Origin: a virus
Strand: one strand, 5' to 3'
DNA length: 11,361 bases
Virus genome (UHGV): UHGV-0806597
Below are positions 1 through 11,361 of the stretch, one piece after another (the first letter of the stretch is position 1; the number at the start of each line of letters is the position of its first letter). The position numbers were made by a program, and so were the translations under genes. The notes beneath the pieces are model-generated. The model saw only the letters and a list, made by a program, of their open reading frames with translations. It did no database searches and had not been told where the DNA came from.

Positions 1-99
1 ATTAGACATCAAGTATATACCCCGTTCCATCGTTGAAAAATTTCCTATCACCAACGATGCTAACCACAGTTCGACCAGGCGTTCGACATCGAAGCGTAT

Positions 100-558
100 A
101 TGCAGGATTATCAGGGCTTCAACACCCAGATGTGGGAGAAGTTTGGGGGTATCCAATTGCAAGACGAAGTGACGTTCTCTATCTCACGCCGCCGATTTGC
201 CGAGGTGATAGGCAACGGTGTTGGGATTGAACAACAACCTCAGGAAGGTGACCTGATCTATCTACCACTGGCGAACAAGATCTTCAAGGTCAACAACCCG
301 AACAACGATGAAGACTTCATGCAATTTGGCAAATGGTATACGTTCTCTCTGCCGTGCACGTTGTTCCAGTACGGCAACGAAAACTTCGATACGGGTGTTC
401 CGGAGATCGACGATATCGACAAACGTCTGTCCATCTTGGACGAAGAGAACGAACCGGACGTGTACAAGGATTCTTCTCTACAGACTGACAATGCTTTAGC
501 AGATGATCTTGAGAAGGGGCTTGCAACAGACAAGATGAAGATCGACTTTGGAGAATAA
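100..558 (+). CDS. hypothetical virion protein (152 aa), acidic C-terminus; possibly a neck-protein (gp14-like) homolog by position upstream of the gp15-like gene
   Basis: ATG at 100 follows in-frame stops at 34-36 and 61-63. The TAA stop at 556-558 sits inside the RBS region of the next gene (tGGAGaataatcATG). No motif I recognise; assignment is by synteny only. Confidence 0.45.
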   Translation: MQDYQGFNTQMWEKFGGIQLQDEVTFSISRRRFAEVIGNGVGIEQQPQEGDLIYLPLANKIFKVNNPNNDEDFMQFGKWYTFSLPCTLFQYGNENFDTGVPEIDDIDKRLSILDEENEPDVYKDSSLQTDNALADDLEKGLATDKMKIDFGE

Positions 559-560
559 TC

Positions 561-1088
561 ATGGCCAGACCATTTGAAAATTACTTCTACCATGATTCAT
601 TGATGAAATACATCAATCTGTTTGCCACCATTATGTCTGATCTGAAGGTGAACACAGAGCGTGGTCTTATGGAAGTCCCATTACACATGGCCATCGGGAG
701 ACGCAATGACCTCAACAGGAACGTGCCGTCCAACATGCTTCCATTTGCGACCTTCTCTTTTGGTCAGTTTGAGATCAACAAACAGGTGACGAAGACGTAC
801 CACAATCGACAATCGACACCAACAGCAGGGGCGAAGCAGCGAATCCCCCTGATTATCGATTTTGAGTACAATATCCGAACCAAGAAATTGGTTGAGATGT
901 TACAGGTGCTAGAGCAGGTTTATTCGGTATTCACTCCCTCTCTAGACTGTGGTATCAAGGACAACGATACACTACAGCAAGACCAGAAGATCAAGATCCA
1001 ACTGATCAAGCCTACCAGATGTCCGATAACTGGGAAGGGGATGCTTCTGATTCACCACACGTCGACTGCTCCTTCATGTTCCAGCTGA
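561..1088 (+). CDS. tail sheath stabiliser / tail completion protein (gp15-like), N-terminal portion; reading frame appears to break near 1015-1030
   Basis: GGAG lies 7 nt upstream of ATG 561. The N-terminus MARPFENYFYHDSLMKYINLF resembles my recollection of the T4 gp15 N-terminus (MFGYFYNSSFRRY...), and the gene sits immediately upstream of the small terminase as in T4. The last ~22 residues in this frame (CPITGKGMLLIHHTSTAPSCSS) look non-native. Confidence 0.5.
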   Translation: MARPFENYFYHDSLMKYINLFATIMSDLKVNTERGLMEVPLHMAIGRRNDLNRNVPSNMLPFATFSFGQFEINKQVTKTYHNRQSTPTAGAKQRIPLIIDFEYNIRTKKLVEMLQVLEQVYSVFTPSLDCGIKDNDTLQQDQKIKIQLIKPTRCPITGKGMLLIHHTSTAPSCSS

Positions 1089-1258
1089 GCGGCTTCATCT
1101 ACGGGTATGACTATTGGGTGGACAACGGTGGAGGCGGGGATCCTAACGGGATCAAAGAGATAATTATCGAAATGTCTAATGATTTGAAAACACCGTGGAC
1201 GGAACTGCCGGAGTGGTTCCGTGTTGACAAAGACGGTGTACATCATCCTGGAGATTGA
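1019..1258 (+). CDS. gp15-like C-terminal portion in the -1 frame (probable continuation of 561-1088 after a frameshift)
   Basis: Overlaps the previous ORF by 70 nt in another frame. Its translation (DCSFMFQLSGFIYGYDYWVDNGGG...) is globular-looking. No Shine-Dalgarno precedes ATG 1019. Its TGA stop at 1256-1258 abuts the small terminase start. Confidence 0.4.
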   Translation: MSDNWEGDASDSPHVDCSFMFQLSGFIYGYDYWVDNGGGGDPNGIKEIIIEMSNDLKTPWTELPEWFRVDKDGVHHPGD

Positions 1259-1260
1259 TT

Positions 1261-1968
1261 ATGAGTGCTATGTCAGAACGCCTATTATCCACCCTCAGTG
1301 CTATCCAAGCGCGGGATGAGGTCGCTCAAGAAGTCATGGAGAAGACCTCGCCTGTGGCTGGAAAGGATTACGATCCGGATACAGGCTTGTGGTTGGGTGA
1401 AAAGCCTGTGGGGTATGAGCCTGTGGTGTTTCCTCCTTCATTGGACCCAGAAGAGCTGAAGCCCAAGGAGTCTAAGGTTCCAGACTTCGAAGACACTGAT
1501 GCCACCACCGACTACAAACGCATCCGTGACACGACTTATGCCATGCAGGAAGCCACGATGTTCATGATGGGACAGGCAGCCAAACTTGCGACGACGACTG
1601 AAGCACCCCGCGCTTTCACAGTCTTCAAGGAGTTGGGTGAACTCATGCGCGGTCTGAACAAAGACCTGATGGAGAACCAGAAAACTATCAAGGCGGTCAC
1701 GGGCGACAGAGAGCCACCTCCTGGAGACGAAACAACCGTCGAGGTCACCACGTCCCCTGATGGCACAACCACGGTCAACGTCGGTAAACAGGCCAGGTCT
1801 TCTCGTGATCTACTGAAGACCATCGAAGACGCCCGTAAACGTGCTGAAGAACGTACTGCAGCGAAAGCTGCATCCAAAGGACCTGATCCCGAAGAAGATG
1901 TAATCGACGTTCAGGCGGAGCCACAGCCGAAGGAAGAAGGTGAAGACGATGGCGTATCAGAAACGTGA
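1261..1968 (+). CDS. terminase small subunit (gp16-like) with an extended acidic C-terminus
   Basis: GGAG at 1250-1253 lies 7 nt before ATG 1261 (the ORF track starts at TTG 1255). The central region (...YKRIRDTTYAMQEATMFMMGQAAKLATTTEAPRAFTVFKELGELMRGLNKDLMENQK) matches the pattern I recall for T4 gp16. It overlaps the large terminase start by 29 nt, as genes 16/17 do in T4. Confidence 0.65.
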   Translation: MSAMSERLLSTLSAIQARDEVAQEVMEKTSPVAGKDYDPDTGLWLGEKPVGYEPVVFPPSLDPEELKPKESKVPDFEDTDATTDYKRIRDTTYAMQEATMFMMGQAAKLATTTEAPRAFTVFKELGELMRGLNKDLMENQKTIKAVTGDREPPPGDETTVEVTTSPDGTTTVNVGKQARSSRDLLKTIEDARKRAEERTAAKAASKGPDPEEDVIDVQAEPQPKEEGEDDGVSET

Positions 1969-4159
1969 TGTAGAATACGCCCCGCTCAAGACGGGGTTTA
2001 AGACAGAAGACGTCAGACTGCGTATGGACCAAACGTTCATGCGCAAGCCGTCTGTGCGCGCTCCTCGAGTGGAGTTGATGCTAACAGATGAGCAGGAATC
2101 GGAGTTCGTCGAGTGTGCGATGGACGCCCATTACTTCGCCGCCAACTACTACAAGATCACGACCATCGATAAAGGCTTCATCCTCTTTGACATGCACGAT
2201 TATCAGAAGCAGTTGTTCCATGACTTCCAGGACTATCGATTCAATGTGGTCGTCCAGGCTCGTCAGTCTGGGAAATGTGTAAAAGGTGACACGCTTGTCA
2301 CAGTTTACGATACTCTCAGCCAAGAGGAGTTGATCCTGACCATAGGGGAGCTTCACAGCCGCTTTGAGGACGTCAACCACGCTGTGCCGCTGAATACCAT
2401 TGGCAACCATGACAAGTTCGTGGACAGCCGCTTCGGCAAACGTTACTTTGTACAATCCGATAGTGGCTGGGTTCCGGTTATCGCAGCGCATAAGACGAAG
2501 AAATATGCGGAATTCGTTATTGTGACTGTTACTGGGCGGCGAATTAACGTGGCCGATGAACATATGTTCTTCACTCCGGAAATGAAGGAGATATTTGCCA
2601 AAGACCTGAATGCTGGGTCATACATCATGACGTCAGAAGGTCCAGAAGAAATCCGTGAGATTTGGCAGACTGGTGAAATGCATCACATGTATGACCTACA
2701 GGTGAAATCTAGTGATCAGCGCTACTACACCAACGGCTTCCTCAGCCACAACACGACAGTTGTGGCAGCGTTCCTGCTCTGGTATGCAATGTTCCACTCC
2801 GACAAAGAGATCGCAGTACTGGCGAACAAAGAGAAGCAGGCGATTGAAATCCTAGATCGTATTCGCAAAGCATATCAAGATTTGCCATTCTTCCTCCAAC
2901 AGGGTTGTGAGAAGTTCGGTTCCACGCTGATAGAGTTCGAAAACGGATCAAAGATCTACGCCTATGCGACATCTTCCGACTCCATCCGTGGTCGATCTGT
3001 ATCGCTCCTGTATGTGGACGAAGTGGCGTTCATCGAAAACGACTTTGAGTTCTGGGAGTCTACATTCCCGGCGATTGCATCTGCGGATACTTCACGTTGT
3101 ATCTTGACCAGTACGCCGAAAGGTCAGCGCGGGTTGTTCTACGACATCGTCACCAAGGCGAATCCAGAACATCCACAATACAACGACTTCAAACTCACAG
3201 AGGTTCCATGGTATCGTGTTCCAACATACACCAAGGATCCGAACTGGGAATCCAAACAGAGGGCGAAGCTGGGCGATGCACGTTTCGATCAAGAATTTGG
3301 CATTAAGTTCCGTGGTTCTGTAGGATCGCTGATACCTGCCAAGTGTCTAGACAAGATGACCTCGAAACTCTATCAGGAGCCGAACGAGTTCACCAAGATC
3401 TACCACGATTACGATCCGAAGCGCATCTACATGGGTATCGCCGATACAGGCAAAGGTGTGGAGGGGGATTACTCTGTTCTGACCATCTTGGATATCACAG
3501 ACTATCCTCACAAGATTGCAGCCAAGTATCGGAACAACACGATACCTCCAATGATGTACGCGTACACAATCGCCGATATGGGCGAGAAGTATGGAACGTG
3601 TCCGATGCTAGTCGAGACCAACAACGACGTGGGTGGTCAGGTAATCACAATTCTATACCAGGAAATTGAATATCCCGAGATCATATTCACTACAACAGAT
3701 ACCAAGGGTACAGGCAAGAGAATCGGTGGTCGCCGCCCTGAGCCTGGTATCAATACCAACAAGAAGGTGCGCACAAACGGCTGCGCCAACCTGAAAGCCC
3801 TGATTGAACGTGAAATGCTGGTGATAGATGACCAGGACACGATAGATGAACTCAGTACATTCGTATGGACTGGGACAAGGTATGAAGCCGATGATGGTTG
3901 TCATGATGACTGTGTAATGCCTCTTGTGCTGTATGCATGGGCGGTGAAACAAGAATGGTTTAGTGACCTCACCAACTCCAGTATCTCAGTTGACATGAGA
4001 GGACGGTTGTCTGCGATGGAAGAATCACAGATGCTACCATTTGGAGGTATGATGTCGACGCCAGATCCTCACTCTGTGGAGAACATCCCAGGGTTCGGTG
4101 GAATTCAGGTTTATGATGAACGCTCTGGTATGTCTATGGAAGAATGGCTGAGACGGTGA
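1940..4159 (+). CDS. terL: terminase large subunit (gp17-like ATPase/nuclease), 739-aa precursor containing a 159-aa mini-intein; predicted spliced product 580 aa
   Basis: With the intein removed, the Walker A reads VVQARQSGK|TTVVAAFLLW (T4: SRQLGKTTVVAIFLAHF). Walker B is LLYVDEVAFI, the coupling motif is ILTSTPKG, the nuclease motifs are IADTGKG...DYSVLTILD and HDDCVMPLVLYAW (T4: HDDLVMSLVIFGW). Collinear with T4 gp17 as I recall it. Confidence 0.95.
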   Translation: MKTMAYQKRDVEYAPLKTGFKTEDVRLRMDQTFMRKPSVRAPRVELMLTDEQESEFVECAMDAHYFAANYYKITTIDKGFILFDMHDYQKQLFHDFQDYRFNVVVQARQSGKCVKGDTLVTVYDTLSQEELILTIGELHSRFEDVNHAVPLNTIGNHDKFVDSRFGKRYFVQSDSGWVPVIAAHKTKKYAEFVIVTVTGRRINVADEHMFFTPEMKEIFAKDLNAGSYIMTSEGPEEIREIWQTGEMHHMYDLQVKSSDQRYYTNGFLSHNTTVVAAFLLWYAMFHSDKEIAVLANKEKQAIEILDRIRKAYQDLPFFLQQGCEKFGSTLIEFENGSKIYAYATSSDSIRGRSVSLLYVDEVAFIENDFEFWESTFPAIASADTSRCILTSTPKGQRGLFYDIVTKANPEHPQYNDFKLTEVPWYRVPTYTKDPNWESKQRAKLGDARFDQEFGIKFRGSVGSLIPAKCLDKMTSKLYQEPNEFTKIYHDYDPKRIYMGIADTGKGVEGDYSVLTILDITDYPHKIAAKYRNNTIPPMMYAYTIADMGEKYGTCPMLVETNNDVGGQVITILYQEIEYPEIIFTTTDTKGTGKRIGGRRPEPGINTNKKVRTNGCANLKALIEREMLVIDDQDTIDELSTFVWTGTRYEADDGCHDDCVMPLVLYAWAVKQEWFSDLTNSSISVDMRGRLSAMEESQMLPFGGMMSTPDPHSVENIPGFGGIQVYDERSGMSMEEWLRR
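2276..2752 (+). other. mini-intein (Hint domain only, no homing-endonuclease domain) inserted between Lys and Thr of the terminase Walker A motif
   Basis: Begins with Cys (CVKGDTLVTV, block A-like) and ends ...MHHMYDLQVKSSDQRYYTNGFLSHN followed by Thr at +1 (blocks F/G-like, terminal His-Asn). Excising residues 113-271 restores a canonical GKTT P-loop. At 159 aa it is too short to carry an endonuclease domain. Confidence 0.85.
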
Positions 4160-4160
4160 T

Positions 4161-4169
4161 CACTAAATA
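4161..4169 (+). promoter_or_regulatory. candidate late-promoter -10-like element CACTAAATA upstream of the tail sheath gene
   Basis: CACTAAATA lies 42 nt upstream of ATG 4212 in the terminase-sheath intergenic region. The same 9-mer recurs upstream of the scaffold gene on the - strand. It resembles the T4 late-promoter core TATAAATA. Confidence 0.35.
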
Positions 4170-4211
4170 TCTTTCAAATTGAGCGAAACTCTACAGAGAA
4201 GGAATAAGATT

Positions 4212-6107
4212 ATGGCAACTCAAAGCTTCAGCGTTGCGCCGTCCGTACAGTGGACTGAGCGTGATGCCACGCTTCAGACGTCTCCATCCGTTGTTGTTCA
4301 GGGTGCGACTGTCGGCAAATTCCAATGGGGTGAAGCAGAACTCCCTGTGTTGGTCACTGGTGGTGAAACTGGTCTGGTGAAGAAATTCTTCAAGCCAAAC
4401 GATGCAACTGCCACCGACTTCTTGGTGATTGCTGACTTCCTGTCTTACAGCTCTGTTGCATGGGTGACCCGTGTGGTCGGTCCGGCGGCACGCAACGCTG
4501 TAACCAAAGGTCAGACTGCAATCCTTATCCGCAACAAACTAGACTTCGAAACTGCGTCCCCATCTGCGTCTATTACTTGGACAGGCCGCTATGCTGGCTC
4601 TCTGGGTAACGACATTGCTGTGAACATCTGTGACGCTGCGCTGTTCCCGACCTGGGAATTCCGTAACAACTTCGCATATGCTCCGCAGGATGGCGAGTAC
4701 CACATCGCCATCGTTGACAAAGTAGGTCGCATCACCGACTCTTCTGGCGCTGTTAGTCAGGTTGATCGTATCTCTGTATCCGGTACTGCCACCGCTGCTG
4801 GTTCCATCTCTGTTGCTGGGGAAGCCGTGGCGTACACTGACGCTGACACCCCGGCGACTCTGGCGACAAAGATCGGAACTGCGCTGACGTCTCTGTCTAG
4901 CGTGTATTCTTCTGTTGTCGTGAAGTCCAACACCGTCACCGTCACTCACAAAGCAATCGGTCCTCAGGCTGCGACTGCGATTGTTCCAGACGCGAATGGC
5001 CTGACTGCTACCGCTGCCGTCACCACTGTTGGTGCTTCCGGTACGATCATCGAGAAGTATGAACTGGTGCAGACCACTCAGGGTTCTAAGAAATCTGATG
5101 GATCCAATGCGTACTTCAAAGACGTGATCAACAGCACCTCAAATTGGGTGTACACCTTCGCCACTACCCTGGCTGCTGGTGTCATTGAACTCGAAGGTGG
5201 TGTAGACGATTACACTGGGAACCGTGTTGCGGCTATCCAGGCACTGAACAACGCCGAAGCGTATGATGCCAAGCCAGTGTTCGGTTTCTGTGAAGAACTG
5301 ATTGAGCAGCAGGCACTGATCGACCTGTCCACTGAGCGTAAAGACACAGTGTCCTTCGTGTCTCCTCTTCGCGATGCGGTCGTCGGAAACCGTGGCCGTG
5401 AGATGGAAGATGTTGTGGCCTGGCGTGAAAGCCTTGTTCGCGACTCCTCCTACTTCTTCATGGATGACAACTGGGCGTATGTGTACGACAAGTACAACGA
5501 CAAAATGCGTTGGATTCCGGCTTGTGGTGGCACCGCAGGTGTTTGGGCGCGAAGCATTGAAATCGCGGGTATCTACAAATCTCCGGCGTTCCACAACCGT
5601 GGTAAATACAACAACTATAATCGAATGGCGTGGTCTGCGTCTTCTGATGAGCGTGCTGTGCTATATCGCAACCAGATCAACAGCATCGTCACCTTCTCCA
5701 ACGAAGGCATCGTGTTGTACGGCGACAAGACTGGCCTGACCCGCCCATCTGCGTTCGACCGCATCAACGTTCGTGGTCTGTTCATTATGGCAGAACAGAA
5801 CATCGCAGCCATCGCCAAATACTACCTTGGTGAGAACAACGATGCATTCACTCGTGGGTTGTTCAGCAACGCTGTCCGCCCATATATCCGCCAGTTGGCC
5901 AACATGGGCGCGATCTATGACGGGATGGTGAAGTGTGACGAGGACAACAACACTGCGGAAGTTATCGCTGCGAACCAGATGGTCGCGGGTATTTGGCTCA
6001 AGCCGGAATACTCAATAAATTGGATATTTTTAGATTTCGCCGCCGTCCGCCCAGACATGGAGTTCTCCGAGATCGAATCCGGTGGTGGTATCGTTGCAGC
6101 CTCCTAA
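4212..6107 (+). CDS. contractile tail sheath protein (gp18-like)
   Basis: AAGGA lies 8 nt before ATG 4212 (the ORF track starts at in-frame TTG 4179). VGKFQWGEAE near the N-terminus matches T4 AGKFQWGPAF. The C-terminal block DKYNDKMRWIP...VLYGDKTGLTRPSAFDRINVRGLF...NNDAFTRGLF...SINWIFLDFAAV is collinear with T4 gp18 (DKYNDVNRWVP...VLYGDKT...PFDRINVRRLF...NNAFTRSSF...SINYITLNFVA). Confidence 0.9.
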   Translation: MATQSFSVAPSVQWTERDATLQTSPSVVVQGATVGKFQWGEAELPVLVTGGETGLVKKFFKPNDATATDFLVIADFLSYSSVAWVTRVVGPAARNAVTKGQTAILIRNKLDFETASPSASITWTGRYAGSLGNDIAVNICDAALFPTWEFRNNFAYAPQDGEYHIAIVDKVGRITDSSGAVSQVDRISVSGTATAAGSISVAGEAVAYTDADTPATLATKIGTALTSLSSVYSSVVVKSNTVTVTHKAIGPQAATAIVPDANGLTATAAVTTVGASGTIIEKYELVQTTQGSKKSDGSNAYFKDVINSTSNWVYTFATTLAAGVIELEGGVDDYTGNRVAAIQALNNAEAYDAKPVFGFCEELIEQQALIDLSTERKDTVSFVSPLRDAVVGNRGREMEDVVAWRESLVRDSSYFFMDDNWAYVYDKYNDKMRWIPACGGTAGVWARSIEIAGIYKSPAFHNRGKYNNYNRMAWSASSDERAVLYRNQINSIVTFSNEGIVLYGDKTGLTRPSAFDRINVRGLFIMAEQNIAAIAKYYLGENNDAFTRGLFSNAVRPYIRQLANMGAIYDGMVKCDEDNNTAEVIAANQMVAGIWLKPEYSINWIFLDFAAVRPDMEFSEIESGGGIVAAS

Positions 6108-6112
6108 CGCGC

Positions 6113-6132
6113 ATGCCCTCTTCGGAGGGCAT
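6113..6132 (+). terminator. stem-loop with UUCG tetraloop (ATGCCCTC-TTCG-GAGGGCAT) just after the sheath stop; possible terminator or mRNA-stabilising hairpin
   Basis: Perfect 8-bp stem with a TTCG loop, 5 nt after the TAA at 6105-6107, followed by TTTCAAT. Only a weak U-tract, so terminator function is uncertain. Confidence 0.35.
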
Positions 6133-6186
6133 TTCAATGGTCTCTCGCGGGTTAAAATGGAACGATTTTACTGAGAGAGCATCGAA

Positions 6187-6885
6187 ATGATCGGAAGTGT
6201 TTACAAAATTACAAATCTAGTCAATCAGAAAGCCTATATCGGTATCACCACAAGAGACCCAAGCCATAGGTGGTGGGAACATTGTAACAGCGCTCGAAAT
6301 GGTTCCGACTACGGTATCCATCAAGCTATTCGCAAGCACGGTGAAGAATCATTCTCGTTCCAAGTGATTGCCCAGACCAAGTCCATAAAAGATCTTAAAG
6401 AATTAGAGATCATCCTGATCAAGCAGCATGACACCCACATGTCAACTCAGAAAGGGTACAACAAAACTTGGGGCGGTGATGGTGCAACATTCACTGGCAA
6501 GACCGGCGCTATTGATGCATCGACCGGAGAGCGTATCGGCCTCGTAGACTGTGATGACCCTAGATGGTCGACAGGAGAGATAATACACTGCAAGGTCGGG
6601 GTCAAGCGTTCTTTCTCAAAGAGCCTGTCTGAATTCGCCAAAGCAAGAACCGGATCCAAGAACTCCAACGCCAAGCGATTCAAATTAGTATCTCCTTCCG
6701 GCGAAGAACACGAAATCCACGGGAACTGTCGTGAATATGTGGAGAGGTTGGGACTTAAATATTCAGCACTCTATGATTACATCGACAAGGGTATTCCAGT
6801 TCCACCACCGTCTGTGTATCATAGGAAAACTGCGACCGCAGAGCGTTTGAATACGACGGGTTGGCAGCTAATTAGAATTGTGTAA
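6187..6885 (+). CDS. free-standing GIY-YIG homing endonuclease (Seg / I-TevI-like)
   Basis: The N-terminus GSVYKITNLVNQKAYIGITTRDPSHRWWEH...IHQAIRKHGEESFSF...LKELEIILIKQH...YN has the GIY-(10-11 aa)-YIG spacing and the conserved Arg, Glu and Asn of the GIY-YIG fold. The C-terminal region (CDD...HCKVG; EHEIHGNCREYVERLGLKYSALYDYI) looks like a DNA-binding extension. It is inserted between the sheath and tube genes and has only a weak RBS. Confidence 0.85.
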   Translation: MIGSVYKITNLVNQKAYIGITTRDPSHRWWEHCNSARNGSDYGIHQAIRKHGEESFSFQVIAQTKSIKDLKELEIILIKQHDTHMSTQKGYNKTWGGDGATFTGKTGAIDASTGERIGLVDCDDPRWSTGEIIHCKVGVKRSFSKSLSEFAKARTGSKNSNAKRFKLVSPSGEEHEIHGNCREYVERLGLKYSALYDYIDKGIPVPPPSVYHRKTATAERLNTTGWQLIRIV

Positions 6886-6905
6886 CTCTTTCTGGAGAAT
6901 CTATA

Positions 6906-7439
6906 ATGGCTACAGTTAATGAATTCAGAGCAGCTATGTCACGCGGGGGCGGCGTTCAGCGCCAACACCGTTGGCGTGTAACTGTTAACTTCCCTTCCTT
7001 CGTGGCTGGAAGCGATACTATCCGTGATGTTTCGCTGTTGGCAGTGACCACAAATACCCCAACAGGCCAGCTCGGGGAAATACTCGTCCCATGGGGTGGT
7101 CGTGAACTTCCATTCCCAGGTGACCGCCGCTTCGAGGCTCTGCCTGTGACGTTCATCAACGTCGTGGACAACGCCCCGTATAACGCATTCGAAGTCTGGC
7201 AGCAGTATATCAACGGCAGCAACAACAACCGTGCGTCTGCTAACCCAGATGATTATTTCCGTGATGTAATCATGGAACTGCTGGATGCGAATGACAACGT
7301 CACCAAGACTTGGACCCTTCAGGGCACCTGGCCTCAGAACCTCGGTCAGCTGGAACTGGACATGTCTGCAATGGACTCTTATACTCAGTTCACTGTTGAC
7401 CTGCGTTACTTCCAGGCCATCTCAGACAAGTCTCTCTAA
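6906..7439 (+). CDS. tail tube protein (gp19-like)
   Basis: GGAGA lies 7 nt before ATG 6906. The C-terminal TWTLQGTWPQNLGQLELDMSAMDSYTQFTVDLRYF parallels T4 gp19 IEIKGLWPTNVGELQLDWDSNNEIQTFEVTLALDYWE as I recall it. Position between sheath and portal genes is as in T4. Confidence 0.85.
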   Translation: MATVNEFRAAMSRGGGVQRQHRWRVTVNFPSFVAGSDTIRDVSLLAVTTNTPTGQLGEILVPWGGRELPFPGDRRFEALPVTFINVVDNAPYNAFEVWQQYINGSNNNRASANPDDYFRDVIMELLDANDNVTKTWTLQGTWPQNLGQLELDMSAMDSYTQFTVDLRYFQAISDKSL

Positions 7440-7440
7440 T

Positions 7441-7498
7441 GTCCTCAGTGCTGGGGGATCTTATTCCCCCTCACTAATTACAAGAAAATGTTGAGGAC
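7441..7498 (+). promoter_or_regulatory. nested hairpin in the tube-portal intergenic region; the outer stem overlaps the portal Shine-Dalgarno
   Basis: Inner stem GGGGGA (7453-7458) pairs with TCCCCC (7465-7470) around a 6-nt loop. Outer stem GTCCTCA (7441-7447) pairs with TGAGGAC (7492-7498), which contains the GAGGA SD of the portal ATG at 7505. Confidence 0.3.
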
Positions 7499-7504
7499 TT
7501 AATC

Positions 7505-8317
7505 ATGGCATTCGGTAATGGTGCATTCGGAAATGGGTTCTTCGGCCTGTTCGGTAGAGGCGGCAAAGTAGAAGCGCCGATTGATACCGACAAGATGGTC
7601 ACGAACCAAGAAGAGAAGTTGCTTTCAAAAGCGACTGTTGTTGCGCTGGACGATTCTCAGGATGGTTCCATCATCCTCCAGGGCGGCGCGAACACATTCA
7701 ATTTCGTTGGTGTTGAGAATGAGTTGCTCAACGTCAAACAGCTGGTCGAAGAGTACCAGTCTATGGCTCAGCAGCCTGAGATTCGTAAGGCTGTGGATAT
7801 CATTGTCAACGATATCGTCACCTGTGAAGAGGATGAGACTCCTGTAACCATCAACCTGGAAAAGGTAGATGGCATCACAAACGAAGTCAAAGAAAAGATC
7901 ACTGACGCATTCAAAGAGATCATGCATCTCCTTGACTTTGACAACACGGCGTATCAGAAGATCCGCAAATGGTATATTGAAGGCCGTCAGGCATTCCACG
8001 TTGTAGTGGACCCGAAGAACAAGAAAGCGGGTATCGCCAAACTCATCATGATGGACTCACGCTGTATCCGCCCAGTGTACATCGTTCAAAAGGCGATGCG
8101 CGACGGTATCGAAGTCATCAATGACGTAAAACTTCAATACTACTACAACCCGAACTACAACCGCAACCAATTCACTGGCCAGTCCGGAACGTCTCAGAAC
8201 TTCCAACCGTCACAGCAAGAGCTGGTGTTTGATGATGAGAGCATAGTGTATCTGGACAGTGGTGAAGAGCCTCTGGCGAATGGGGTTGTGCCAAGCCTGC
8301 CGAAGCGACGATTATAG
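7505..8317 (+). CDS. portal protein (gp20-like), N-terminal fragment only (~265 native residues, then 5 foreign residues PKRRL and a stop)
   Basis: NTAYQKIRKWYIEGRQAFHVVVDPKNKKAGIAKL matches T4 gp20 [32 protein letters not shown] as I recall it. The frame ends 17 nt past the inverted-repeat boundary at 8300; the rest of the portal is on the - strand at 10386-11361. Confidence 0.85.
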   Translation: MAFGNGAFGNGFFGLFGRGGKVEAPIDTDKMVTNQEEKLLSKATVVALDDSQDGSIILQGGANTFNFVGVENELLNVKQLVEEYQSMAQQPEIRKAVDIIVNDIVTCEEDETPVTINLEKVDGITNEVKEKITDAFKEIMHLLDFDNTAYQKIRKWYIEGRQAFHVVVDPKNKKAGIAKLIMMDSRCIRPVYIVQKAMRDGIEVINDVKLQYYYNPNYNRNQFTGQSGTSQNFQPSQQELVFDDESIVYLDSGEEPLANGVVPSLPKRRL

Positions 8318-9138
8318 TCGGCCAACTGACGCTTGATAGATTCTTTCAGCTCTTTGTCTGTTTCATCTTCATCGTCATCTTCATCGCCTTCTTTCTTAGG
8401 CTTTTTGCCTTCGGCTTTAACATCTTTGTTGTCGTCATCGCCGTCTTTACCGCCGACTTTGTCCTGGAAGTCATCGTCATCGTCATCACCTTCTTTCTTC
8501 ACGGACTTACCTTCTACCAGGTTGCGGAAGGTGTGTACGCGGGAAGCGAATTCGCTTTCGGTGGTGAACTGCACAGCTTCCAGCAGATTGACAACCGTTG
8601 CTTTCTTGGTGTCGACCATACCTTCACAGACACGGGCGATCACAGAGTCACGCAGAGTCGCATTCGCGGCTTCTTTGATTTGACGGTTTTCGCTTTCGGC
8701 AATCGCAGCACGTCGTTCTGCTTCGGTCAGGCGGGCAGTCAGCGCAGCGATCTGGCCGTTTTCGTCGGTGGCAAAGTTAATACCAGCTTCTTTCAGAACA
8801 CCAGTCAGGCCAGTCAGCAGATTTTCAGCCGCTTCACGTTTGATCTGAGCATCGATTGCAGGAGCGTTCTTGTTAGCCCACTCTTCTACAACAGCATTCA
8901 GGAAGCCATCGACTTTGGTCGCGATTTCCATCAAGTGAGACTCTTTCAGCTGAGCAATCTCAGCCTGATGAGCTTCAACCAGACGCAGGCGCTCAATATT
9001 GGCAGCGTTTTCGGTTTCTTGAATAGCGGTCAGGCGAGCGGCTTCTACTTTAGATTCCAGCAGACCAGACACTTTATCCAGGAAGTCGGTGCTGAGGCCG
9101 TTAACGCCCTCAAACAGTTTTTGCAATTCAGGTTTCAT
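8194..9138 (-). CDS. prohead core scaffold protein (gp22-like); the C-terminal ~36 codons run antisense through the portal fragment and are probably not native
   Basis: AAGGAAA lies 6 nt before ATG (9138-9136). The protein is highly charged and helical-looking with a poly-Asp/Glu tract (EGDDDDDDFQD...GDEDDDEDETDKE). It follows the protease gene as gp22 follows gp21 in T4. After ...KRQLADYNRR the frame crosses the repeat junction at 8300/8301 and gives unrelated sequence (FGRLGTTPFARGSSPL...). Confidence 0.7.
   Translation of the reverse strand: MKPELQKLFEGVNGLSTDFLDKVSGLLESKVEAARLTAIQETENAANIERLRLVEAHQAEIAQLKESHLMEIATKVDGFLNAVVEEWANKNAPAIDAQIKREAAENLLTGLTGVLKEAGINFATDENGQIAALTARLTEAERRAAIAESENRQIKEAANATLRDSVIARVCEGMVDTKKATVVNLLEAVQFTTESEFASRVHTFRNLVEGKSVKKEGDDDDDDFQDKVGGKDGDDDNKDVKAEGKKPKKEGDEDDDEDETDKELKESIKRQLADYNRRFGRLGTTPFARGSSPLSRYTMLSSSNTSSCCDGWKF
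8224..8300 (+). repeat. left arm of a 77-bp perfect inverted repeat (portal codons ...VFDDESIVYLDSGEEPLANGVVPSL)
   Basis: Base-by-base comparison: 8224-8300 equals the reverse complement of 11285-11361 at every position. Identity ends at 8301 (c, versus t expected). Confidence 0.95.
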
Positions 9139-9165
9139 GATTGTTTCCTTCTGAACGATTTTCAG

Positions 9166-9174
9166 TATTTAGTG
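9166..9174 (-). promoter_or_regulatory. candidate late-promoter -10-like element CACTAAATA upstream of the scaffold gene
   Basis: The - strand reads CACTAAATACTGAAAATCGTTCAGAAGGAAACAATCATG, placing the 9-mer 27 nt upstream of the scaffold ATG. It is identical to the 9-mer upstream of the sheath gene. Confidence 0.35.
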
Positions 9175-9183
9175 AGGCTGAAT

Positions 9184-9852
9184 TCAGCCCAGATGTTTCA
9201 ATGCGATATCGAGGCGGCGCAGGAAGTCGTCTTCTAACTGAATATTGGTTTTCACCAATGAATCGACCACATGCCCCTTAATGTCCTTAGGAACCCAAAT
9301 TCCTGAAGATTCATCAAGCTGCCATTCCACAGATTCGCTCACAGCCTTTACATAACAAACTTGTCCAGAAGGACGGTCGACTGCATCAACAGCAGTGAGC
9401 ATAAAGCCGGGTTGAACGTCATCATAGCCGTTCACTGACTTGGTCTCACCAAGGCCACGTGTAGACACGGCCAGGTTGAAGTCTGCTTCAGCCAGAGCAC
9501 GAATGATCTGACCTTTCGGTGTATTCAGGATCCGCGCTCGACCGATAGCGTTGGTGCCTTCCCAGCGCAAAGATTCGGTTTTGAGTGCAGCGTGTTCGAT
9601 ATCGGGGAAAGGATAATCCGGATGCTTGAGTTCACCGATTGCACGACGATCCTGGATATACTCTTTGTCGTATGCTTCGACAGCAGGGATACCCACCTTT
9701 TGGAGATCGTAGTTGCGACCATTACGGTTCACCTGGTTACACATCACGAATGGACCTTCGATGTACATGGCTTTGCCGCCAGTAGCCGTGGCCGCTTCAC
9801 CAATCTGAAGGTCTTTCCCTATCGCAGTGATCTCACGCAACAGTTTCATCAT
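9184..9852 (-). CDS. prohead protease (gp21-like)
   Basis: AAGGAG precedes tandem ATGs at 9852 and 9849; the second has the better spacing. Motifs GELKHPD and LAVSTRGLG match what I recall of the T4 gp21 / prohead-protease family. Position between gp68-like and scaffold genes is as in T4. Confidence 0.8.
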   Translation of the reverse strand: MMKLLREITAIGKDLQIGEAATATGGKAMYIEGPFVMCNQVNRNGRNYDLQKVGIPAVEAYDKEYIQDRRAIGELKHPDYPFPDIEHAALKTESLRWEGTNAIGRARILNTPKGQIIRALAEADFNLAVSTRGLGETKSVNGYDDVQPGFMLTAVDAVDRPSGQVCYVKAVSESVEWQLDESSGIWVPKDIKGHVVDSLVKTNIQLEDDFLRRLDIALKHLG

Positions 9853-9859
9853 TCGCTCC

Positions 9860-10165
9860 TTAACTCAGCCCCATCATACGACGGAACTTCATTGCTTTTT
9901 TCTTACGACGCTCGATTTTGCGCTGGTATCCCATACCCATGCGTTTCTTGGCTCGGATCGCCTTGCGGTTGCCCAGCTTGCGAGTACGGCGCTCACTGGC
10001 GACCATCACCTCACAACGGGAACCATCCGCAGACAGTTTGAAACCAGGAGCACACTGCAGACGGCGACGGCGTTTGCCTTTTGCGTTCACCTTGTCAATG
10101 ACTTTCTGCTCATCCATGCGGGAAGCCAGGAAATCAGCGAACGTTGCAACTTCTTCGATTTCCAT
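9860..10165 (-). CDS. prohead core protein (gp68-like), very basic C-terminal half
   Basis: GAGGAA lies 6 nt before ATG (10165-10163). 101 aa with an Arg/Lys-rich tail (KGKRRRRL...RKKKAMKFRR). Its TAA stop sits immediately upstream of the protease SD. Assignment rests on size, composition and the T4 order 67-68-21. Confidence 0.55.
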   Translation of the reverse strand: MEIEEVATFADFLASRMDEQKVIDKVNAKGKRRRRLQCAPGFKLSADGSRCEVMVASERRTRKLGNRKAIRAKKRMGMGYQRKIERRKKKAMKFRRMMGLS

Positions 10166-10177
10166 GATACATTCCTC

Positions 10178-10348
10178 TTACTGGTCGTCGCCGAAAGGAC
10201 CCATGTCTTGGCTCAGGGAGTTCAAGACATATTCAGTACCCTGCTGGACCAGTTCTTGGGCGCGAGCGGACAGCTCCATTTCGCATTCAGCAGCAGCGGC
10301 ATCAGTATCACCAGCGATGATTGCTTTTACCAGATCGATAGCAGCCAT
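10178..10348 (-). CDS. small acidic prohead core protein (gp67-like)
   Basis: GAGGA lies 7 nt before ATG (10348-10346). The ORF track extends it to a GTG at 10399, which would overlap the portal stop. Small, acidic (ends ...MGPFGDDQ), directly downstream of the portal C-terminal fragment as gene 67 follows gene 20 in T4. Confidence 0.5.
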   Translation of the reverse strand: MAAIDLVKAIIAGDTDAAAAECEMELSARAQELVQQGTEYVLNSLSQDMGPFGDDQ

Positions 10349-10385
10349 GTTCATATCCTCTAAATGTTTTCTATACTTAGTCGAA

Positions 10386-11361
10386 TTATTCTTCACCACC
10401 AGGAGGGTTAGTCGCTGGGATGACGTTAGGTCTGAATTTCAGTGGACTGACTTCCCCGCTGCCGAAGCCGCCGGACTCATCTGCCTGTACTTCAGGATAT
10501 TTGCCTTCTTTCTTCTCTTTCGCGATCTTCTCTTGCTGGTCTTTGATGTCTTCATCGGACATACGCAGCAAATTGCGTTGAGCAAAATCGATAGAGAAGA
10601 GAGTGCCGATATATGGTTCGATCTGACCGAGAGCCGCCATACGCTGTGACAAGATTTCGTTCTCTTGTTGTTCACGGATGAAGCTGTCAGAAGTGAATTC
10701 GAACTTGACGAACGGCTTGATCTTCTCATTCCAGTCAGCCTGATCTGTAATGCCTTTCAATATCAGCTGACGGCGCAGAAGTTCCAGGAAAATACCAGAA
10801 GAATAACGACGGCGCAGGCTCGCACAGAACTTGTTGAAGCGCAATTCTTCCTGTGTGATTTCAGCAAGATTGGAACCACCGATGTTGATGGAACCTTCCT
10901 CTTGCAGGCGGCTCTTAGGGATCATCAGAGCCTCGTAGAGCTTCTCGCGGAAGTATACCACATGATCCATTTGACCCAGTTGATCGCCACCGCCTACGTT
11001 GGAGATCTCGGTTGCGTTCTGCCCTTCGCGACGTGGTAGCCAGTAGTCCTCAGCGATACCCATCAAATGAGTGTTACCAGCCACCTTACCAGTGGTGCGA
11101 TCATACGCCAGACGGTTCTTGAATTTGCCCATCATGGCTTGCATGTATTCTTCGGCCGACTTCTTACCCAGCGTACCCACGTCGAGATAGAACGCTCGCT
11201 TCTCAGGAGCACGTGTGATCGCATAGATTACCGTTGCATCTTCAGTTGTAACAAGGTTGTTCAGGGGACGGATAGCCGGGTTCAGCAGGCTTGGCACAAC
11301 CCCATTCGCCAGAGGCTCTTCACCACTGTCCAGATACACTATGCTCTCATCATCAAACACC
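10386..11361 (-). CDS. portal protein (gp20-like), C-terminal portion; 5' end runs off the window
   Basis: ATVIYAITRAPEKRAFYLDVGTL...NRLAYDRTTGKV...EDYWLPRREGQNATE...LILKGITDQADWNEKI is collinear with T4 gp20 [23 protein letters not shown]...NRVVYDASTGKI...EDYWLQRRDGKAVTE...LLLKGIITEDEWNDEI as I recall it. The first 25 codons in the window are the inverted-repeat copy of the end of the + strand portal fragment. The 'M' at 11360 in the ORF track is just a GTG at the window edge. Confidence 0.85.
   Translation of the reverse strand, partial: VFDDESIVYLDSGEEPLANGVVPSLLNPAIRPLNNLVTTEDATVIYAITRAPEKRAFYLDVGTLGKKSAEEYMQAMMGKFKNRLAYDRTTGKVAGNTHLMGIAEDYWLPRREGQNATEISNVGGGDQLGQMDHVVYFREKLYEALMIPKSRLQEEGSINIGGSNLAEITQEELRFNKFCASLRRRYSSGIFLELLRRQLILKGITDQADWNEKIKPFVKFEFTSDSFIREQQENEILSQRMAALGQIEPYIGTLFSIDFAQRNLLRMSDEDIKDQQEKIAKEKKEGKYPEVQADESGGFGSGEVSPLKFRPNVIPATNPPGGEE
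11285..11361 (-). repeat. right arm of the 77-bp perfect inverted repeat (truncated by the window end, may be longer)
   Basis: The reverse complement of 11285-11361 is identical to 8224-8300. The match is still perfect at the last base of the window. Confidence 0.95.

What the first reader, a model, noticed from the sequence alone, without database searches (positions are those of the whole stretch)
561..1258. gp15-like tail gene is split by an apparent -1 frameshift near 1015-1030
Two overlapping ORFs (561-1088 and 1019-1258) together span ~232 codons, close to the size of a single gp15-type protein (T4 gp15 is 272 aa as I recall). The tail of the first ORF looks non-native while the second frame looks globular. 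ATG 1019 has no Shine-Dalgarno, and I see no slippery heptamer in the overlap (...ATCAAGCCTACCAGATGTCCGATAAC...). An indel from sequencing error, a pseudogenising mutation, or an unusual recoding event are all possible.
Basis: inference. Interest (0 to 1): 0.45.

Follow-up and report, generated by a model that had tools for sequence, protein, structure and literature searches.

The report
Tail gene split by sequence errors
The split in this phage tail gene is real in the sequence as given, but it comes from two stray extra bases that are missing from an otherwise identical public copy of the same phage, so it is almost certainly a sequencing or assembly error and not biology.

Summary
ORF 561-1088 and the frame-2 ORF 1019-1258 (that frame is open from 896) match contiguous parts of one T4 gp15-type tail sheath stabiliser (Pfam PF16724, profile positions 1-157 and 158-211).

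The cause is two single-base insertions four bases apart, A1009 and T1013. Native ATC AGC CAC (I-S-H) became ATCAAGCCTAC. Deleting both bases restores a 696-nt gene identical to gp15 on two public contigs, Logan ERR975170_138 and GenBank CYGL01000920.1.

Those contigs match the window with no substitutions. Logan ERR975170_138 covers window 44-11361. The differences are these two insertions, a 1-nt deletion at 68 that also frameshifts neck gene gp14, and an inverted chimeric junction at about 8300.

All 24 related loci, 30 homologue clusters and the GenBank Ackermannviridae records examined carry one intact 231-243 aa gene.

The overlap has no slippery heptamer and no downstream structure (z = +1.09). 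ATG1019 has no ribosome-binding site.

Verdict: a sequencing or assembly artefact in a low-quality contig of an Agtrevirus (Ag3-like) phage, probably from an amplified gut virome. A genuine defective variant is the minor alternative. Programmed recoding is effectively excluded. Interest is low.

The parts
561..1258 (+). gp15-type tail sheath stabiliser / tail terminator gene, 698 nt here against 696 nt in every relative; disrupted
   Evidence: Pfam PF16724 and PHROG 227 hits on both halves. Annotated as a single 696-nt CDS in GenBank relatives. Removing A1009 and T1013 gives a 696-nt ORF identical to the gp15 of L021.
1008..1009 (+). inserted A (native ATCAGC became ATCAAGC; A to AA)
   Evidence: The only differences from L007/L008/L021/L024 in this gene are an inserted A at 1009 and an inserted T at 1013.
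1013..1013 (+). inserted T (native GCCACC became GCCTACC)
1008..1088 (+). out-of-frame tail of ORF1 (26 non-native residues, KPTRCPITGKGMLLIHHTSTAPSCSS, then stop)
   Evidence: The Pfam alignment of ORF1 stops at residue 148.
1019..1258 (+). 3' part of gp15 in frame 2. ATG1019 is the internal Met153 of the intact protein, not a start site. Encodes native residues 153-231.
   Evidence: no GGAG/GAGG/AGGA in the 25 nt upstream
1..558 (+). 3' two-thirds of neck gene gp14, itself frameshifted by a 1-nt deletion at 68/69 (native CACAGGTTC became CACAGTTC)
   Evidence: Pfam PF11649
8298..8304 (.). Inverted chimeric junction inside portal gene gp20. Upstream is collinear with relatives. Downstream is the reverse complement of DNA 2.98 kb further along (gp22, gp21, gp20 C-terminal part). 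Microhomology is TGC, or an imperfect 7 nt.
11281..11361 (-). 81-nt inverted duplicate of 8224-8304 (80/81 identical) at the window end, a consequence of the foldback

Best explanation
The locus is the ordinary, essential gp15-type tail terminator / sheath stabiliser gene of an Agtrevirus (Ag3-like Ackermannviridae) phage. It sits in the conserved order gp13-gp14-gp15-gp16-gp17-gp18.

In the real phage it is one 231-aa ORF. In this copy, two spurious single bases (A1009, T1013) were introduced four bases apart. They turn ATC AGC CAC (I-S-H) into ATCAAGCCTAC and shift the frame.

The extra bases are technical errors: base-calling or assembly errors in a poorly supported contig end, or some other non-biological alteration of the record. 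The same contig carries a third single-base error (a deleted G at 68 in gp14) and an inverted chimeric join at about 8300, of the kind produced by multiple displacement amplification.

What is shown: the indels, the identity to an intact copy, and the absence of any recoding signal. What is inferred: that the cause is technical, and that the library was amplified or sequenced on an indel-prone platform.
For: 1. **An intact twin exists.** Logan ERR975170_138 (L007/L021) and GenBank CYGL01000920.1 (L008/L024) match the window with zero substitutions. Logan ERR975170_138 covers window 44-11361 and CYGL01000920.1 covers 157-8304 plus 10941-11361. The only differences are the deleted G at 68, inserted A at 1009, inserted T at 1013 and the foldback. 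Deleting the two bases reproduces their gp15 exactly.
2. **The changes are indels only.** There are three frame-breaking indels and no substitutions. Against the natural relative L019 the window differs by 186 substitutions and no further frame-breaking coding indel. Fisher p = 9e-7. This is the signature of indel-prone sequencing, not of divergence.
3. **Two essential virion genes are hit within 1 kb of the contig end.** The other two assemblies also break within 160 nt of that end.
4. **The same contig contains an inverted join.** It has an intervening 2.98-kb deletion and short microhomology. This matches the dominant MDA chimera type: more than 85% are inverted with a deletion, and more than 70% have 2-21 nt of complementarity (PMC1855051). 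CYGL01 is named 'Assembly HumMal, Ma_F259...' (PMC10888812). Nearly all gut virome studies of that period used MDA (PMC6895007).
5. **Every relative is intact.** All 24 related loci have a 9-nt in-frame patch (I/V-S/N-H). All 30 homologue clusters down to 42% identity are single 231-243 aa proteins with a nearly invariant His at this spot, which neither window frame encodes. The 15 best-matching GenBank phage records each span 84 nt against the 86-nt query, so they lack the two extra bases.
6. **The variant is not seen elsewhere.** The junction 29-mer is absent from viral contigs, metagenome contigs and genome contigs. The 175-aa product is not on record.
Against: - No reads were available, so the technical origin is inferred and not observed.
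- One of the three indels (T1013) is not in a homopolymer.
- Two insertions 4 nt apart make an unusual random error. They could be a single complex event.
- The sequencing platform and library method of the window's source are not known to me. The link to an MDA-amplified virome rests on a contig name plus my own recollection of the Malawi twin virome study (Reyes et al. 2015, which I could not read).
- ERR975170 and GCA_001292545.1 may be the same sample, so the intact twin may be one observation and not two.
Confidence: 0.85

Rival explanations
1. Genuine inactivating mutations. The contig samples a defective phage genome, or a sub-population variant, in which gp14 and gp15 are knocked out. 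It would persist only by complementation from co-infecting wild-type phage, or be a dead-end molecule.
For: The indels are in the sequence as given. T1013 is not a homopolymer error. An intact genome that is otherwise identical exists and could complement it.
Against: - Three frame-breaking indels with zero substitutions across the compared length is far from the natural spectrum.
- Both genes are essential virion parts in T4 (established knowledge of gp14 and gp15).
- Ackermannviridae are virulent, so there is no prophage state in which pseudogenes could drift.
- The variant is absent from every collection searched.
- A chimeric join in the same contig shows the assembly is unreliable.
Confidence: 0.12
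2. Programmed ribosomal frameshifting (-1, or a +2 hop) joins the two ORFs into a full-length gp15-like protein of 232 aa.
For: The two frames overlap over 896-1088, so a shift between 1005 and 1016 would yield a near-native protein.
Against: - There is no X_XXY_YYZ heptamer in any frame, and no homopolymer of 4 or more in the shift zone.
- The 94 nt downstream fold no better than shuffles (-21.2 kcal/mol, z = +1.09; 174 of 200 shuffles fold at least as well).
- The downstream sequence is the same in relatives that need no shift.
- None of 24 loci and none of 30 clusters has the two-ORF layout.
- The product would lack the nearly invariant His.
Confidence: 0.015
3. A functional split gene: the 175-aa and 79-aa products are made separately and assemble into a working terminator.
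For: ORF2 begins with ATG and holds the conserved C-terminal block.
Against: - ATG1019 is the internal Met153 and has no Shine-Dalgarno, unlike the starts at 561 and 1261.
- It lies 67 nt upstream of ORF1's stop, so termination-reinitiation coupling is unlikely.
- The break falls inside the conserved core, aligned to T4 gp15 'VLMSAAI', and not between domains.
- No split homologue exists.
Confidence: 0.01

Closest known systems
gp15 of Agtrevirus / Ackermannviridae phages (e.g. Shigella phage Ag3 YP_003358655.1, Escherichia phage AV101 WJJ54134.1, Salmonella phage vB_CECAV_050 XIF73293.1)
   Same: All residues outside the 3-codon patch are identical to CECAV_050 and Ag3 gp15. The flanking genes gp14 and gp16 are the same. 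After removal of two bases the gene is 100% identical in DNA to gp15 of ERR975170_138 and CYGL01000920.1.
   Different: Two extra bases (A1009, T1013) break the frame. The relatives have a 696-nt uninterrupted CDS.
Bacteriophage T4 gp15 tail terminator / tail completion protein (PDB 4HUD, 4HUH, 3J2M; 272 aa)
   Same: It belongs to the same Pfam family, PF16724. There is a weak but significant direct sequence match, E = 2e-4, residues 77-180 against T4 94-199. Its position between neck gene gp14 and terminase gene gp16 is the same.
   Different: Sequence identity is low over the aligned core, and the protein is shorter (231 aa against 272 aa). The function in this phage is inferred from homology and synteny and was not tested.
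MDA / indel-type sequencing artefacts in amplified viromes (Lasken & Stockwell 2007, PMC1855051)
   Same: The contig has an inverted join with an intervening deletion and short microhomology. Its differences from a clean assembly are indels only.
   Different: The library method and platform of the window's source are unknown to me, and T1013 is not a homopolymer error.

Membership tests
T4-gp15_tss (PF16724) tail sheath stabiliser / tail terminator | Significant match to the family profile above the curated cut-off | tested here: met
   ORF1 scores 138.2 bits and the frame-2 part 39.2 bits against a cut-off of 25. The profile positions are contiguous, 1-157 and 158-211. PHROG 227 gives E = 7e-39 and 1.5e-15.
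T4-gp15_tss (PF16724) tail sheath stabiliser / tail terminator | Conserved position in the neck-tail-packaging module (gp13-gp14-gp15-gp16-gp17-gp18) | tested here: met
   Window ORFs and Pfam hits. The same order is annotated in relatives.
T4-gp15_tss (PF16724) tail sheath stabiliser / tail terminator | One uninterrupted ORF of about 230-270 aa | tested here: not met
   It is split into 175-aa and 79-aa ORFs in the window as given. The criterion is met once A1009 and T1013 are removed.
T4-gp15_tss (PF16724) tail sheath stabiliser / tail terminator | Hexameric ring capping tube and sheath and binding the neck | not testable with these tools
   Known for T4 gp15 (PDB 3J2M/4HUD entries listed). 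No structure or virion data exist for this phage here.
Programmed -1 ribosomal frameshift site | Slippery heptamer X_XXY_YYZ in the zero frame within the overlap | tested here: not met
   None in any frame in 896-1088.
Programmed -1 ribosomal frameshift site | Stable stimulatory structure just downstream | tested here: not met
   Window 1017-1110 has an MFE of -21.2 kcal/mol against a shuffle mean of -24.8, z = +1.09.
Programmed -1 ribosomal frameshift site | Two-frame arrangement conserved in relatives | tested here: not met
   None of 24 loci, none of 30 protein clusters, and no GenBank record with the 2-nt insert among the best matches.
Sequencing / assembly artefact | An otherwise identical independent sequence lacks the lesion | tested here: met
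   L007/L021 and L008/L024 show 0 substitutions. The only differences are 3 single-base indels and the foldback.
Sequencing / assembly artefact | Other signs of poor quality in the same contig | tested here: met
   A gp14 frameshift at 68. An inverted chimeric junction at 8298-8304 with an 81-nt inverted duplication.
Sequencing / assembly artefact | Reads do not support the extra bases | not testable with these tools
   No read data are accessible.

The most novel reading that the evidence does not exclude
The three indels are real. The contig would then represent a naturally circulating defective 'cheater' genome of an Agtrevirus in a human gut, lacking functional gp14 and gp15 and propagated by complementation from the co-resident intact phage. 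Alternatively, gp15 would be rescued by an unconventional ribosomal shift that needs no slippery site.
Probability: 0.03. Interest if true: 0.4.

Novelty: not a real feature. Interest (0 to 1): 0.05.

Why it matters
It matters mainly for quality control. Annotating this contig as it stands would produce a false pseudogene or split-gene call for gp15 and gp14, and a false inversion in the head-gene module. A scan for recoding events would log a false candidate. The underlying gene is a well-known, highly conserved tail terminator of Ag3-like phages, so there is no new biology here. The case does show a useful pattern: differences from an identical twin sequence that are indels only, together with a foldback join in the same contig, are a reliable flag for artefacts from amplified libraries.

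Tried and rejected
- **Exact look-up of the 175-aa ORF1 product:** not on record.
- **Exact scans for the junction 29-mer:** nothing in viral contigs, metagenome contigs or genome contigs.
- **Exact scans for the foldback junction 37-mer:** nothing in the same three collections. The window's own source contig could therefore not be located.
- **An ancestor with an extra codon here, which would make the lesion a 1-nt deletion from a 12-nt patch:** rejected. No homologue has an extra residue at this site, and the identical twin has 9 nt.
- **Programmed frameshift:** the heptamer scan and the downstream fold were both negative.
- **Templated or quasi-palindromic origin of the patch:** the only similar 10-mer, CAAGCCTGCC, lies at 8292-8301 next to the chimera junction. 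Eleven of 200 shuffles give two or more matches, so this is treated as chance.
- **Literature on ERR975170 / GCA_001292545 / CYGL01:** this only gave the assembly name 'HumMal, Ma_F259'.
- **Reyes et al. 2015 (PNAS):** not held, so the library method for that study remains my recollection.
- **One literature search was wasted:** the term 'hummal' matched unrelated author names.
- **Structure prediction and deep homology searches:** not run, because the question was settled at the DNA level.

Full report
**What the window is.** The 11.4-kb window is the neck, tail and packaging module of an Ag3-like phage (Ackermannviridae, Aglimvirinae, Agtrevirus). Megablast gives 98-99% identity to Salmonella phage vB_CECAV_050, Enterobacter phage fGh-Ecl02, and Escherichia phages A221 and AV101. 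It gives about 95% identity to Shigella phage Ag3. The genes, placed using the ORF list, Pfam hits and the annotation of relatives, are:

| Gene | Window coordinates |
|---|---|
| gp14 neck protein (3' part) | 1-558 |
| gp15 | 561-1258 |
| gp16 small terminase | 1261-1968 |
| gp17 large terminase | 1949-4159 |
| gp18 sheath | 4212-6107 |
| GIY-YIG endonuclease | 6187-6885 |
| gp19 tube | 6906-7439 |
| gp20 portal (start) | from 7505 |

**Checking the observation.** The two ORFs exist as described: 561-1088 (175 aa) and 1019-1258 (79 aa), and the second frame is open from 896. ORF1 residues 8-148 match positions 1-157 of Pfam PF16724 (T4-gp15_tss) at 138 bits. The frame-2 translation matches positions 158-211 at 39 bits. 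The pieces are therefore adjacent parts of one protein, and PHROG 227 agrees. ATG1019 has no Shine-Dalgarno sequence, whereas the real starts at 561 and 1261 both have GGAG 9-10 nt upstream. The overlap contains no X_XXY_YYZ heptamer in any frame.

**What the lesion is.** In every GenBank relative examined, gp15 is a single 696-nt CDS. In the window the span is 698 nt. Alignment shows a small patch where relatives read GTCAGCCAC, ATTAGCCAC or ATTAACCAC (V/I-S/N-H) and the window reads ATCAAGCCTAC. The rest of the protein is identical residue for residue to CECAV_050 and Ag3 gp15.

- ORF1 therefore holds 149 native residues plus 26 out-of-frame residues.
- ORF2 is native residues M153-D231.
- ATG1019 is simply the internal Met of the conserved motif Q-M-S-D-N-W-E-G-D.

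**The decisive comparison.** A look-up of the window's gp16 and GIY-YIG proteins found two public contigs, Logan ERR975170_138 (28.8 kb) and GenBank CYGL01000920.1 (assembly GCA_001292545.1). Neither shows any substitution against the window. Logan ERR975170_138 covers window 44-11361, and CYGL01000920.1 covers 157-8304 plus 10941-11361. The only differences are listed here:

- a deleted G at window 68;
- an inserted A at 1009;
- an inserted T at 1013;
- a rearrangement at about 8300.

Removing A1009 and T1013 gives a 696-nt ORF identical in DNA to gp15 of those contigs, coding I-S-H at the patch. The closest other relatives differ by about 2%. For example, the window differs from L019 by 186 substitutions, with no further frame-breaking indel in coding sequence. 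Three frame-breaking indels against zero substitutions, compared with 0 against 186, gives Fisher p = 9e-7. These changes did not arise by the process that separates viable relatives.

**Breadth of conservation.**

- All 24 loci fetched have a 9-nt in-frame patch. They comprise GenBank phages and ENA, JGI, Logan and NCBI contigs.
- All 30 homologue clusters down to 42% identity are single proteins of 231-243 aa with no length variation at this site. They have a nearly invariant His, which neither window frame encodes.
- A sensitive blastn of window 975-1060 against 50,697 phage records gave best matches that differ only by the two gap columns, 84 nt in the record against 86 in the query.
- The junction 29-mer is absent from the viral, metagenome and genome collections. 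The 175-aa product is not on record.

**Other defects in the same contig.**

1. The deleted G at 68 frameshifts the neck gene gp14. Frame 2 reads …ITNDANH and frame 1 continues (R)FDQAFDIEAY…, against the intact …ITNDANHRFDQAFDIEAY….
2. Window 3-8304 is collinear with relatives. Window 8298-11361 is the reverse complement of DNA that lies 2.98 kb further along (gp22 end, gp21, C-terminal part of gp20). The two are joined at TGC|CGAA with short microhomology. This leaves an 81-nt inverted duplication, 8224-8304 against 11281-11361, that is 80/81 identical. The ERR975170 contig is collinear through this region.
3. An inverted join with an intervening deletion and 2-21 nt of complementarity is the dominant chimera type of multiple displacement amplification (PMC1855051).
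4. CYGL01 is named 'Assembly HumMal, Ma_F259_Contig_…' (PMC10888812). From the name and my own recollection, this is the Malawian twin gut virome project. Nearly all gut virome studies of that time used MDA (PMC6895007). I could not read the original paper, so this link is an inference.
5. All three assemblies end within 160 nt of the window's start. That suggests weak read support there, next to the three indels.

**Recoding and split-gene alternatives.**

- There is no slippery heptamer and no homopolymer of 4 or more at the shift zone.
- The 94 nt downstream fold at -21.2 kcal/mol against a shuffle mean of -24.8 (z = +1.09; 174 of 200 shuffles fold at least as well).
- That downstream sequence is unchanged in relatives that need no shift.
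- By alignment to T4 gp15, the break falls inside the conserved core (T4 'VLMSAAI', residues 94-199 aligned, E = 2e-4) and not at a domain boundary.
- ORF2 has no ribosome-binding site, and its ATG lies 67 nt before ORF1's stop.
- No relative has two genes here.

**Mechanism and verdict.** The gene is the ordinary tail terminator / sheath stabiliser. By homology to T4 gp15, it forms a hexameric cap on the tube and sheath that provides the docking surface for the neck; this function is inferred and was not tested here. The split is best explained as a technical artefact: two spurious bases in a poorly supported stretch of a chimeric contig (confidence about 0.85). A genuine defective variant carrying all three indels cannot be excluded without reads (about 0.12). 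It would be non-viable alone and is unsupported by any other sequence. Programmed frameshifting and a functional split gene are each at about 0.01. Novelty: not a real feature. Interest: low.

Noticed in passing
A 1-nt deletion (native CACAGGTTC became CACAGTTC) breaks the neck protein gene gp14. It is absent from the otherwise identical contig ERR975170_138.
   Followed up: yes
window 8224-8304 and 8298-11361: A foldback chimera inside portal gene gp20. The rest of the window is the reverse complement of the gp22-gp21-gp20C region, skipping 2.98 kb, with TGC microhomology and an 81-nt inverted duplication at the window end. The identical public contig is collinear here. The form fits an MDA chimera.
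   Followed up: yes
window 2276-2752 (within gp17, 1949-4159): The large terminase carries a 159-aa intein-like insert (C110…SHN268, followed by T) inside the Walker A motif (RQSGK|C…HN|TTV). Pfam Intein_splicing scores 30 bits, below the 35.8 cut-off. All relatives have the same 736-aa protein.
   Followed up: partly
window 6187-6885: A GIY-YIG homing endonuclease sits between the sheath (gp18) and tube (gp19) genes. This slot varies among close relatives: it holds the same GIY-YIG, a reverse-strand GIY-YIG, a DUF7487 gene or small ORFs.
   Followed up: partly
window 1007-1016 and 8292-8301: The frameshift patch CAAGCCTACC resembles CAAGCCTGCC, which lies directly at the chimeric junction (9/10 identical). 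Eleven of 200 shuffles give two or more matches, so this is probably chance.
   Followed up: partly
window 1-160: The first two bases (AT) differ from all relatives (GA). The two identical public contigs also start or end within 160 nt of the window start. This points to a shared coverage gap or graph break in gp14.
   Followed up: no
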